A stretch of DNA of 64,000 nt from Thermodesulfobacteriota bacterium (lineage in GTDB: Bacteria > Desulfobacterota_D > UBA1144 > Nemesobacterales > JAJCZQ01). Of this stretch, positions 10,199-62,978 are shown piece by piece (within the stretch, counting starts at the first letter, position 1; every line of letters starts with the position of its first letter). The notes under the pieces are model-generated. The model was not told the origin of the DNA. It searched no databases and worked only from the letters and a program-made list of their open reading frames with translations. The translations under genes and the position numbers were made by a program. Location: the NCBI GenBank assembly GCA_965215275.1, contig OZ244044.1:1824001-1888000 (forward strand), written 5' to 3'.

Positions 10199-10227
10199 AT
10201 GATATTGTTTTATGGTTCATTTGTCAA
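10199..10227 (-). promoter_or_regulatory. Sigma70-like promoter of the nitroreductase operon
   Basis: Minus strand TTGACA-17nt-TATCAT. Confidence 0.65.
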
Positions 10228-10242
10228 GATGTAAGTAAATTA

Positions 10243-10398
10243 GGGAATTATAAAGGAAAGTTGACAAGTTTACCTTAACTGTTCCGAGTGCAGAGTTCCT
10301 CTATCCCCGATCTCTTTTGATCTGATACTCTTAGCACTCATCGGGAGTATTTCTACCTTATTCCCACCCGATATGAAGTCTCCTTCATCAAGAGTATT
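10243..10398 (-). ncRNA. Putative omegaRNA scaffold overlapping the tnpB 3' end and the terminal repeat
   Basis: Starts just after the RuvC-III codons; stems ATACTCTTG/TAAGAGTAT, ATGAAG-GAGA-CTTCAT, GAGTGC/GCACTC, AGAG-GAA-CTCT; covaries with the copy at 62818-62978. Confidence 0.7.
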
Positions 10399-11492
10399 GA
10401 TATTTTTACCTGCATTTATGTCCCTGTCTTCTGAATAACCGCAATACATACAGTTAAAAGTCCTGACTGACAGAGGCTGTTTGGGATTTACCTTTCCGCA
10501 TTCAGAACAGGTCCTTGTTGTATAATGAGCTTTAACCAAAACCAGCTTGCCTCCAGCTATCCCGGCTTTGTAAGCAAACTGACGTTTGATCTTGCCCCAT
10601 TGCTGTTCCGTTATGGATTTAGCAAGATGATGGTTCTTTACCATTCCTTGTATATTCAAATCCTCTAATTTTATATGATTACTCTTCTTTACGGTCTCTG
10701 TTGTTAATCTGTGTATAGCATTATTTTCACGATCGGTAGTTCGTTCCCATTCCTTCGCTAACGATAAAACTTTCTTCTTTCTGCTGTCAGAACCTTTTAC
10801 CGCTCTTGAAACAATTCTTTGCTTTCTTTTCAGTTCCTTCCTGTCTATCCTGATACCGGGAATTTTAGTTCCATCTGAAAAAGCTAATCTGTTTGTTATT
10901 CCAAGATCTATTCCTATGGATTTATCCAAAGGTCTCTTCTTCTCATTTGTAAACTCACACAGAAACTGTATCTTTATTCTTAACGAACTCCTGATTATTC
11001 TTATTACAGTTTTAGGTTGCTTTAAAACAACTCCGTCAGGCATACTACCTTTGAAAGATAACCTCCCAGTCCCTTTATCGTTAAATAAGTCCTTCTGCCG
11101 ATCTTTTCAATGTTTTTATAATTGTTTGTTTCAAAACTTCTGACGGGTCTGTTCGGACCTTTATATTTTGGTCTGCCTACCTTTTTTGCTTTCCTGCCAG
11201 CTTTTTTATTCCTTAAATAATTCAGATAGGGACCGTAAGCATTATCCAGCCTTTCCAGAACGCTTCTTTGAGCTACCACGTTAAACTTTTCAAATTCCCT
11301 GTCCTGCTCCCGGACCTCGGTCAGTTCGTTAAACTGCTCGTATTTGGATACGGTTTTTTCATACCAGTCATAAGACCTTAATCTGTGATACAGGGCACCG
11401 TTGTAAAGATCGGTAAGCTGTTGCAGAAATTCATCCAGCCTTTTATGAAATCCACTATCTGCCTTTACAGTTCTTGTAATCGTTCTAACCAT
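10270..11492 (-). pseudogene. tnpB: RNA-guided endonuclease TnpB, split by a 1-nt frameshift near 11064-11067 (about 407 aa if joined)
   Basis: N-half LYNGAL, GRPKYK; C-half GIDLG (RuvC-I), LEDL (RuvC-II), CSECG/CMYCG zinc finger, DRDINA (RuvC-III). Confidence 0.9.
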
Positions 11493-11498
11493 ATAATA

Positions 11499-11527
11499 AC
11501 ATTACCTTTTTCTATTCTGTTTGTCAA
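11499..11527 (-). promoter_or_regulatory. Sigma70-like promoter for a leaderless tnpB transcript
   Basis: Minus strand TTGACA-17nt-TAATGT, then 6 nt to the ATG; no Shine-Dalgarno. Confidence 0.6.
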
Positions 11528-11583
11528 TTTTTTCTTGTTAACTTATTTTTGTCAACTTTTCTTTATAATTCCCGTAAATTACA

Positions 11584-11612
11584 TTTACAAAATATATCAG
11601 TTAGTTTAAAAT
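11584..11612 (+). promoter_or_regulatory. Sigma70-like promoter of the thiolase gene
   Basis: TTTACA-17nt-TAAAAT, upstream of the AAGGAG RBS. Confidence 0.55.
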
Positions 11613-62813: not shown

Positions 62814-62978
62814 AATGAATATTCTTATATAAAGGAAACTTTATATGGGGTGGGACAGCTAAAATGGGGAATAACGCTCCCGATGGTTGCTAATAATATT
62901 TAAAACAGAAGGGAATTGAGGGACTCTGTACTCATAACGATATAGGTAGATTTTTGTCAACTCTCCCATATAATTCCC
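62814..62978 (+). ncRNA. Stand-alone omegaRNA-like scaffold ending in the tnpB-element terminal repeat
   Basis: Collinear homology to the reverse complement of 10243-10398; compensatory stem changes; TIR at 62954-62978 matches 21/25; no tnpB ORF upstream. Confidence 0.68.

What the first reader, a model, noticed from the sequence alone, without database searches (positions are those of the whole stretch)
10235..11581. TnpB carried by a TIR + 8-bp-TSD (IS1595-like) element instead of an IS200/IS605 element
Seen: tnpB is the only gene between 25-bp inverted repeats (GGGAATTATAAAGGAAAGTTGACAA at 10243-10267; inverted copy at 11549-11573, 1 mismatch). These are flanked by an exact direct repeat, GTAAATTA (10235-10242 and 11574-11581). 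The stop codon ends 2 nt from the TIR, and a leaderless promoter lies just inside the other end. Known: the canonical TnpB carriers (IS200/IS605 with HUH TnpA, IS607 with serine recombinase) have no TIRs and make no 8-bp TSD. 8-bp TSDs and ends starting ggnnatTAT are described for the IS1595 family (ISNwi1 group). Inference: an OMEGA nuclease has been captured as the sole cargo of a non-autonomous DDE-mobilised cassette, with the TIR built into the guide RNA 3' region. I do not know this architecture as a characterised system.
Basis: partly seen in the sequence, partly recalled or inferred. Interest (0 to 1): 0.92.

Follow-up and report, generated by a model that had tools for sequence, protein, structure and literature searches.

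The report
TnpB nuclease in IS1595 transposon shell
A small mobile element carries only the gene for a predicted RNA-guided DNA cutter (TnpB) between the inverted ends of an unrelated transposon family (IS1595), is likely moved by a transposase encoded elsewhere, and its copies almost always sit beside a one-sided TG motif that is likely the cutter's recognition signal; the general arrangement is in print in outline, but I did not find this partner family named.

Summary
Observation confirmed: 25-bp inverted repeats (1 mismatch), an exact 8-bp duplication, and one tnpB gene (frameshifted in this copy). It is not a one-off. The genome holds 8 full copies plus 1 deleted copy, each at a different site with its own 8-mer. 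20 of 23 TnpB hits lie between such ends, and IS1595 transposases share them. A same-genus genome has the empty site with one 8-mer. Related cassettes occur in a sister family and in Alpha-/Gammaproteobacteria and Binatia records, in two TnpB clades. TnpB keeps D-E-D and dN/dS is about 0.2. The right repeat is folded into a predicted guide-RNA scaffold: a co-varying stem plus a pseudoknot in the ISDra2 register. The base just outside the left duplication is G in 9/9, 35/36 and 18/18 copies, against 0/11 and 4/23 in IS1595 elements without tnpB. This is a likely TAM, most likely fixed by homing after insertion. Altae-Tran 2023 already reports TIR-bound DDE-TnpB branches, solo copies moved in trans, and a TA motif 8 bp upstream (DDE-5); IS1595 is not named there as a partner. 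New variant of a known kind. This scan found it before in other genomes. Nuclease activity is untested.

The parts
10227..10242 (-). Predicted guide (16 nt): the right 8-bp duplication plus 8 nt of host flank, upstream of the nitroreductase promoter
   Evidence: Inferred from the pseudoknot register; its first 14 nt occur once in the genome, preceded by TCCC
10235..10242 (.). Target-site duplication, right-end side (GTAAATTA on +)
   Evidence: Exact repeat of 11574-11581; single copy at the empty site in G001
10243..10267 (-). Right terminal inverted repeat, IS1595 type; last 25 nt of the predicted omegaRNA scaffold
   Evidence: identical to both ends of transposase element L231; inner part forms a co-varying stem
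10243..10372 (-). Predicted omegaRNA scaffold (about 130 nt): stem 1 10372-10367 with 10345-10340; loop GGGAAU 10365-10360 pairing with terminal AUUCCC 10248-10243; stem 2 10339-10334 with 10291-10286; repeat-derived stem about 10276-10253
   Evidence: (96% of cells paired, 26 two-sided changes, 0 of 500 shuffles); the single sequence alone is no more stable than shuffles (z -0.46); no Rfam match in 5 related loci
10270..11492 (-). tnpB, about 407 codons in intact paralogues, frameshifted in this copy near 11069; RuvC D/E/D codons start at 10908, 10665 and 10422; C4 zinc finger present
   Evidence: paralogue A6 aligns to ISDra2 TnpB, E 5e-27; NF040570 over cut-off
11499..11527 (-). Candidate leaderless promoter (perfect -35, weak -10, ATG 6 nt on)
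   Evidence: Read from the sequence and the paralogue alignment; not listed
11549..11573 (-). Left terminal inverted repeat, IS1595 type
11574..11581 (.). Target-site duplication, left-end side
11582..11583 (-). Predicted TAM (TG, read on the minus strand directly 5' of the duplication); host DNA, not part of the element
   Evidence: TG in 8 of 9 and G in 9 of 9 family-A copies; also present at the G001 empty site

Best explanation
This is a non-autonomous IS1595-type cassette whose only gene is tnpB; it is likely moved in trans by an IS1595 DDE transposase, and its TnpB with a predicted omegaRNA likely cuts empty copies of the insertion site so that repair puts the cassette back. SHOWN: inverted ends, variable 8-bp duplications, many sites, an empty orthologous site, shared ends with transposase elements, intact D-E-D, purifying selection, a one-sided flank motif. 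INFERRED, step by step. (1) The transposase recognises the 25-bp ends and inserts at AT-rich 8-mers without a strict motif. (2) Transcription through tnpB and the right repeat gives an omegaRNA whose last stem and pseudoknot use the repeat, so the guide starts at the first base of the duplication. (3) At an empty allele the order is TG, 8-mer, right flank, which is a full target; at the filled allele the guide match is preceded by CCC and is spared. (4) Cutting of empty alleles (sister chromosome after insertion, excision products, incoming DNA) followed by recombination fixes or keeps only insertions that landed beside the motif, which would explain the bias. (5) This frameshifted copy would rely on TnpB from its 7 intact paralogues.
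For: Mobility: 8 full copies at 84.6-100% identity plus one 326-bp deleted copy, with 9 different 8-mers: 5 exact, 2 with one mismatch, 2 with two. Empty site in G001. Transposase: 28 PF12762 matches in the genome against 1 weak Y1 match; family D ends match the transposase element at 1516018-1519071. Nuclease: D-E-D and zinc finger in all intact copies; dN/dS 0.17-0.34 in 21 of 21 family-A pairs. RNA: the exact 5-nt complement of the terminus lies 85-135 nt inside the right end in 71 of 109 TnpB elements, 5 of 109 left-end mirrors and 2 of 47 control right ends. The right end folds more stably than the left in 45 of 47, 35 of 40 and 14 of 16 TnpB elements, but in 13 of 25 and 6 of 15 controls. 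3 of 5 pairs of the repeat-derived stem show two-sided changes in 37 sequences. The ISDra2 pseudoknot uses -6 to -2 with -102 to -106 (PMC10097598). Motif: G at -1 of the left duplication in 9 of 9 (G000 family A), 35 of 36 (genus g10 clade I) and 18 of 18 (G120), mirror side 2 of 9, 7 of 36 and 4 of 18; IS1595 elements without tnpB 0 of 11 and 4 of 23. No guide has a second 14-nt match at another site. Retention by cutting empty sites is shown for IS605/IS607 (PMC10690162 passages).
Against: No cleavage, RNA or transposition data. The motif is only 1-2 nt, and it is weak for families B, C and D (A at -1 in 7 of 7, against 5 of 11 in controls). The controls pool many transposase subtypes, and the exact mobilising enzyme is unknown. 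One end type in G067 has G at -1 in 5 of 11 left ends (mirror 4 of 10, read), and 3 of 4 left ends first seen in g10 had G. The closest transposase element to family A in this genome (1100815-1102101) is itself frameshifted. The pseudoknot core is nearly invariant (no two-sided change in 37 g10 sequences; 3 in family C), and GGGA loops also occur in canonical TnpB RNAs, so it is not proof of new adaptation. Related genomes are not independent. A near-100% bias in young copies (G120, 93-99.8% identical) needs very efficient filtering, which homing alone may not give.
Confidence: 0.66

Rival explanations
1. Direct steering: the TnpB-RNA complex made by the cassette helps the IS1595 transposase choose sites beside the TAM, so the bias arises at insertion, not by later selection.
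For: 18 of 18 young copies in G120 have G and 15 of 18 TG; the fixed 8-bp offset equals the stagger of the transposase cut.
Against: Elements with related ends but no tnpB in the same genomes show no bias although TnpB is present in trans (0 of 11; C at -1 in L376 and L377). No adaptor gene; no locus of 401 holds both genes between one pair of ends. The nuclease site is intact.
Confidence: 0.12
2. The motif is the target preference of a particular IS1595 transposase that co-evolved with TnpB (as TnpA and TnpB did in IS605); homing still operates but does not create the bias.
For: Convergence of transposase and nuclease motifs is the rule in IS605 and IS607 (PMC10690162). Some g10 transposase elements have G or TG at the left end (L225, L241, L248, L252).
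Against: Best-matched transposase elements lack it: L231 (ends identical to the window) has C, L223 C, L224 T, L244 A; three G000 cargo elements with family-A-like ends have no G on either side. The motif changes with the TnpB family (TG against A/TA) while the ends stay alike.
Confidence: 0.14
3. tnpB is passive cargo, like the methylase, ABC-transporter and TPR genes that IS1595 elements carry in this genome; the nuclease has no role in the element's life cycle.
For: IS1595 elements here carry many kinds of passengers; this copy is frameshifted.
Against: dN/dS about 0.2, one-sided motif only in tnpB elements, right-end-only stem that co-varies with the repeat, the same layout in two TnpB clades.
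Confidence: 0.06
4. One-off nesting of an IS605-type element inside a MITE.
For: TnpB scores closer to the IS200/IS605 model than to the IS607 model, both under cut-off.
Against: 20 of 23 TnpB hits in the genome and most in genus g10 are bound by these ends; the stop codon is 27 nt from the end, leaving no room for a separate IS605 right end.
Confidence: 0.01

Closest known systems
DDE-transposase-associated TnpB branches DDE-1 to DDE-6, and solo TnpBs with matching ends (Altae-Tran et al. 2023, PMC10691335; passages and SI text read, Fig. 4 and Additional files 10/11 not seen)
   Same: TnpB between inverted terminal repeats, 3' end close to the element end, solo copies proposed to move in trans. 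The SI says DDE-5 systems have a TA motif 8 bp upstream of the predicted end, the same offset as here and the same letters as families B-D.
   Different: IS1595 is not named as a partner: 0 hits in the main text and 1 in the SI, in a list of profiles. A 2026 review lists ISL2, IS630 and IS1031 (PMC13565253). DDE-5 is described among plasmid-borne branches with a rearranged catalytic site; these elements are chromosomal with canonical D-E-D, and plasmid matches are distant (30-32% where most of the protein is covered). I cannot exclude that one DDE branch is IS1595. No RNA-structure or control analysis was seen there.
IS200/IS605 TnpB-omegaRNA (ISDra2; PMC10097598 passages; PDB 8H1J, 8EXA)
   Same: Protein domains and D-E-D, omegaRNA overlapping the gene 3' end and the right end, pseudoknot at the last 6 nt, guide from the flank, TAM beside the left end.
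   Different: No HUH TnpA, no hairpin ends, no scarless junction. The TAM is separated from the element by an 8-bp duplication, is 1-2 nt, and does not appear to be set by the transposase.
IS1595 family with passenger genes and non-autonomous cassettes (family traits from PMC8101967 passages; 'tIS/MIC' terms and the ISNwi1 end signature recalled, not from a call)
   Same: About 25-bp ends starting GG, 8-bp duplications, transposases with N-terminal zinc finger and DDE_Tnp_IS1595 in the same genome.
   Different: The passenger is wired into the end (the repeat is part of its RNA) and appears to bias where copies persist.
Fanzor1 in eukaryotic DDE transposons (PMC13565253 section 6.2, read whole)
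   Same: TnpB homologue in TIR/TSD elements.
   Different: There the 5' duplication is part of the TAM, the 3' duplication is in the scaffold and the pseudoknot is lost. Here the duplication varies and is predicted to be the guide seed, the TAM lies outside it, and the pseudoknot appears kept.

Membership tests
IS1595-family non-autonomous element | Terminal inverted repeats of about 25 bp shared with IS1595 transposase elements | tested here: met
   (L231 identical 25/25 to the right repeat)
IS1595-family non-autonomous element | 8-bp target-site duplication that differs between copies | tested here: met
   empty site
IS1595-family non-autonomous element | Mobilisation by an IS1595 transposase in trans | not testable with these tools
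   Inferred from shared ends; the nearest family-A-type transposase in G000 is frameshifted
ISNwi1 subgroup of IS1595 | End signature and transposase catalytic-motif spacing of the subgroup | not tested
   The end fits the recalled 'ggnnatTAT'; no subgroup reference was retrieved (not held)
RNA-guided TnpB nuclease (OMEGA) | RuvC D-E-D triad and C4 zinc finger | tested here: met
   this copy is frameshifted upstream, 7 paralogues are intact
RNA-guided TnpB nuclease (OMEGA) | Structured omegaRNA overlapping the gene 3' end and ending at the element end with a pseudoknot | tested here: met
   Comparative only; stems co-vary, pseudoknot core invariant
RNA-guided TnpB nuclease (OMEGA) | Conserved TAM next to the left end that adjoins the guide target at the empty site | tested here: met
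   As a sequence motif; its use by the enzyme is untested
RNA-guided TnpB nuclease (OMEGA) | RNA expression and guide/TAM-dependent DNA cleavage | not testable with these tools
   Needs RNA reads and an assay
IS200/IS605 or IS1341 element | No inverted repeats, no duplication, hairpin ends, HUH TnpA | tested here: not met
   definition in PMC13565253
IS607 element | No inverted repeats or duplication; serine recombinase | tested here: not met
   Repeats and duplications are present; NF038280 far under cut-off; a serine recombinase was not searched for
DDE-5 branch of Altae-Tran 2023 | TA motif 8 bp upstream of the end | tested here: inconclusive
   Same offset; TA or A in families B-D, TG in family A
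DDE-5 branch of Altae-Tran 2023 | Placement in that branch of their tree | not testable with these tools
   Their tables and Additional files are not held

The most novel reading that the evidence does not exclude
TnpB has been rewired, at least twice, onto a transposon whose transposase has no fixed target, evolving a 1-2-nt TAM and a guide RNA built from the inverted repeat, and the TnpB-RNA complex itself steers the IS1595 transposase to insert exactly beside that TAM: a minimal two-protein coupling of an OMEGA nuclease to DDE integration.
Probability: 0.12. Interest if true: 0.92.

Novelty: new variant of a known kind. Interest (0 to 1): 0.64.

Why it matters
A 2026 review notes that OMEGA nucleases are rare on prokaryotic DDE transposons and asks what they gain there (PMC13565253). 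This family makes the question testable with natural controls: the same ends occur with and without tnpB, and only the tnpB copies show the flank motif. If the reading holds, the motif is imposed by the nuclease after insertion, not by a matched transposase, and these roughly 400-aa enzymes would have very short TAMs (TG, G or purine), which is of direct use for compact genome editors. It also shows how a guide RNA can take over an unrelated transposon end, a step thought to underlie Fanzor spread.

Tried and rejected
Metagenome scan with the single protein found nothing. A loose RNA-to-end pattern over 120 class genomes was too noisy to count; it only gave leads. No RNA holder listed, so expression is open. 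Four DNA runs showed no joint skipping the whole element; contigs drop rare variants. Single-sequence folding gave z -0.46, and Rfam gave nothing for 5 related loci. My first pair count used a mis-registered structure string and is void; one search is the corrected count. Empty-site searches for three other copies: the A4 site in G001 lacks the element but the spacer is too diverged to show one 8-mer; A5 and A3 gave no usable junction. An autonomous element with both genes was not found in 401 loci; 3 loci hold both genes, in separate or decayed elements. A 9-bp duplication as the cause of the G was rejected because the right side never begins with that G. Self-targeting of the repeat was rejected on the pseudoknot register (inferred). 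Literature: TnpB + IS1595 + TIR + RNA-guided 0 papers; TnpB + IS1595 9 papers, none on this by listing; further searches listed nothing on this pairing. Most subscription journals are not covered, and the original IS1595 family paper was not seen.

Full report
Observation. The described features are in the sequence: a 25-bp inverted repeat with 1 mismatch (10243-10267; 11549-11573) flanked by an exact GTAAATTA, and one tnpB on the minus strand whose stop ends 2 nt from the right repeat. The gene is split by a single missing base near 11069 relative to 7 of 7 full-length paralogues. A contig of run X5 spans the place without difference from the window, so the break is probably real. The promoter is a perfect -35 with a weak -10 and no room for a leader; the consensus scan did not list it.

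It is a mobile family. The 1.99-Mb genome has 8 full-length copies of this element (84.6-100% identity) and one 326-bp internal deletion. All 9 sit at different sites with different AT-rich 8-mers: 5 exact, 2 with one mismatch, 2 with two, one of these after a 1-nt shift of the left end. Of 23 PF07282 matches in the genome, 22 were examined and 20 lie between such ends, in four families: A (9), B (4), C (4), D (3). The other two examined are fragments. A, B and C are 42-66% identical to each other; D is about 25% identical to them. The genome has 28 IS1595-domain matches and one weak Y1 match. Four transposases tested pass NF033547, and their elements end in the same GGGRAYTAT type of repeat with 8-bp duplications. 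In the same-genus genome G001 the two flanks join with an overlap of exactly 8 bp, and the 8-mer is present once with 7 of 8 letters the same.

Distribution. TnpB was found in 35 of 120 genomes of the class, 29 of 36 in one genus (g10) of a sister family. I fetched nearly all listed matches; 26 unlisted ones were not seen. Most g10 copies have the same kind of ends and duplications; those of G070, G075, G032, G047 and some of G033 have no such ends. Trees place the repeat-bound proteins in two distant clades: I (A, B, C and 60 g10 tips) and II (D and 45 g10 tips) (FastTree, midpoint root, deep nodes weak). This points to at least two captures. A scan of named genomes returned 72 loci, titled mostly Ca. 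Dadabacteria/Thermodesulfobacteriota, and also Hyphomonadaceae (23 loci from one genome), Arenicellales, Azotimanducaceae and Binatia. These latter four carry IS1595-type ends, with exact 8-bp duplications in the Hyphomonadaceae, Azotimanducaceae and Binatia loci, and fall in clade I (support 1.0). The host is therefore probably a Dadabacteria relative (inference). No locus of 401 holds tnpB and a transposase between one pair of ends.

The nuclease looks maintained. The RuvC D, E and D and the zinc finger align with ISDra2 TnpB. Pairwise dN/dS, with the RNA-overlapping tail removed, is 0.17-0.34 for 21 of 21 family-A pairs and 0.20-0.58 for 10 pairs of B, C and D. Pairs share history and are not independent.

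The right repeat is part of the predicted RNA. In families A-C, a structure of 22 pairs is formed in 96% of cells with 26 two-sided changes, and 0 of 500 shuffles reach it (17 sequences). In 37 of the 61 g10 clade-I right ends, picked to limit near-duplicates, 94.6% of cells pair, with 59 two-sided changes. The helix between the inner repeat and the arm just upstream has two-sided changes at 3 of 5 pairs: when the repeat variant changes, the arm follows. Relatedness inflates such counts, so I used an internal control. Both ends carry the same repeat, but only the right end folds better: 45 of 47, 35 of 40 and 14 of 16 TnpB elements, against 13 of 25 and 6 of 15 controls. A hairpin loop GGGAAU about 120 nt inside is complementary to the terminal AUUCCC in both clades. 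An exact 5-nt complement is present in 71 of 109 right ends, 5 of 109 left-end mirrors and 2 of 47 control right ends. ISDra2 forms its pseudoknot between -6..-2 and -102..-106 (PMC10097598 passages), so the guide would begin at the first base of the duplication. Against over-reading: the pseudoknot core hardly varies, and canonical TnpB RNAs in the same data also have GGGA-type loops, so the fit may be a pre-existing match that eased capture. The window sequence alone folds no better than shuffles.

A one-sided motif where a TAM should be. Counting only elements with paired ends and at most 2 mismatches between duplications, the base directly 5' of the left duplication is G in 9 of 9 family-A copies (TG 8 of 9; 8 of 9 G without the 1-nt shift), 35 of 36 g10 clade-I elements (2 same-site rows dropped) and 18 of 18 G120 copies (TG 15 of 18; 6 of 24 loci failed the filter). 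The mirror position at the right end gives 2 of 9, 7 of 36 and 4 of 18. One row, the 1295-bp element in L120, was filed under clade I by a name clash and belongs by length to clade II; moving it gives 34 of 35, and the same clash touches one or two rows. Clade II shows a purine in 28 of 29 against 12 of 29. IS1595 elements without tnpB show G in 0 of 11 (G000; 14 examined, 3 failed the duplication filter) and 4 of 23 (g10; 60 regions fetched, 26 passed, 3 dropped as same-site, 6 of 26 with them); Fisher p 1e-10 for 35/36 against 4/23, overstated by kinship. The best-matched controls lack the motif (L231, L223, L224, L244; L376, L377). Against: one end type in G067 has G in 5 of 11 left ends (mirror 4 of 10; read), 3 of 4 left ends first seen in g10 had G, and the A/TA motif of families B-D is weak against an AT-rich background. 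The TG is also present at the G001 empty site, so that site is a complete predicted target. None of the 20 guides has a second 14-nt match at another genomic site.

Mechanism. Most likely (0.66): the transposase inserts in trans at AT-rich 8-mers; each copy makes a guide against its own empty site; only where a TAM happens to precede the 8-mer can TnpB cut empty alleles, and repair from a filled copy keeps or spreads those insertions. Retention by cutting empty sites is established for IS605 and IS607 (PMC10690162 passages), and drive among DNA copies for IS200/605 on plasmids (PMC11870625 abstract). Its transfer to this element is inference, and whether IS1595 excision leaves a single 8-mer is unknown. 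Rivals: a co-evolved transposase preference (0.14), direct steering by the TnpB complex (0.12), passive cargo (0.06), one-off nesting (0.01).

Relation to what is known. It works like an IS605 OMEGA system but is not a member of IS200/IS605 or IS607. It is a non-autonomous IS1595-type element by ends and duplication (family traits: PMC8101967 passages). Altae-Tran 2023 (PMC10691335; passages; SI searched; SI part 3 read) reports inverted ends for six DDE-linked TnpB branches, solo TnpBs with matching ends, and, in one SI line, a TA motif 8 bp upstream of the end in DDE-5. That anticipates the layout and the offset. IS1595 is not named as a partner in the text I could read, and a 2026 review (PMC13565253; abstract, passages and section 6.2) names ISL2, IS630 and IS1031. 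Fig. 4, Tables S1-S2 and Additional files 10-11 were not visible and may bear on this. Ten searches listed no paper on TnpB with IS1595. The ISNwi1 label and the tIS/MIC terms are recalled. Earlier notes of this scan describe the same kind of element in other genomes; I read them after my own tests, they are not independent support, and one is marked as partly fallen without detail.

Verdict. Real, repeated, cross-phylum and well controlled by comparative tests; a new variant of a known kind; activity untested. Interest 0.64.

Noticed in passing
window 62866-62978 (+): Orphan omegaRNA-like sequence ending in an IS1595-type repeat, with only a decayed tnpB tail upstream and no left end found; a possible stand-alone guide or a relic.
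   Followed up: partly
G000:C1:1742862-1743187: 326-bp deletion derivative of family A that keeps both ends, an exact duplication, the RNA region and the TG motif; a candidate guide-only cassette.
   Followed up: partly
G000:C1:1616480-1619604: Two family-B TnpB cassettes lie back to back, left ends 16 bp apart.
   Followed up: no
L225, L226, L230, L235: IS1595 transposase elements with different ends and lengths in four g10 genomes sit at the same site, inside a palindrome that looks like parS (recalled consensus): a possible insertion hot spot.
   Followed up: no
L092/L142/L169, L019/L167, L112/L199: Cassettes of the two different TnpB clades occupy the same (or 1-bp shifted) site in different g10 genomes: hot spots, or replacement of one cassette by another through shared ends.
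   Followed up: no
G000 families B and C (B2, C2, C3, C4): Left and right 8-mers do not match in several copies, suggesting rearrangements between copies or adjacent deletions.
   Followed up: no
G000:C1:17470-21955, 1028600-1033127, 1897941-1900957, 1002026-1005187: Elements with the same kind of ends carry other cargo: ABC-transporter-like and TPR-like genes, a 1187-aa ORF, a DNA-methylase-like gene (names read from the sequence starts).
   Followed up: no
L318:1534-1950 and L364: The G120 cassettes have about 420 nt of conserved sequence without a clear ORF between the left end and tnpB; a 558-bp derivative keeps it, the RNA 3' part and the TG motif.
   Followed up: partly
window 10199-10227 (-) and 11584-11612 (+): The element sits exactly between the -35 boxes of the divergent nitroreductase and thiolase promoters and leaves both intact.
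   Followed up: no
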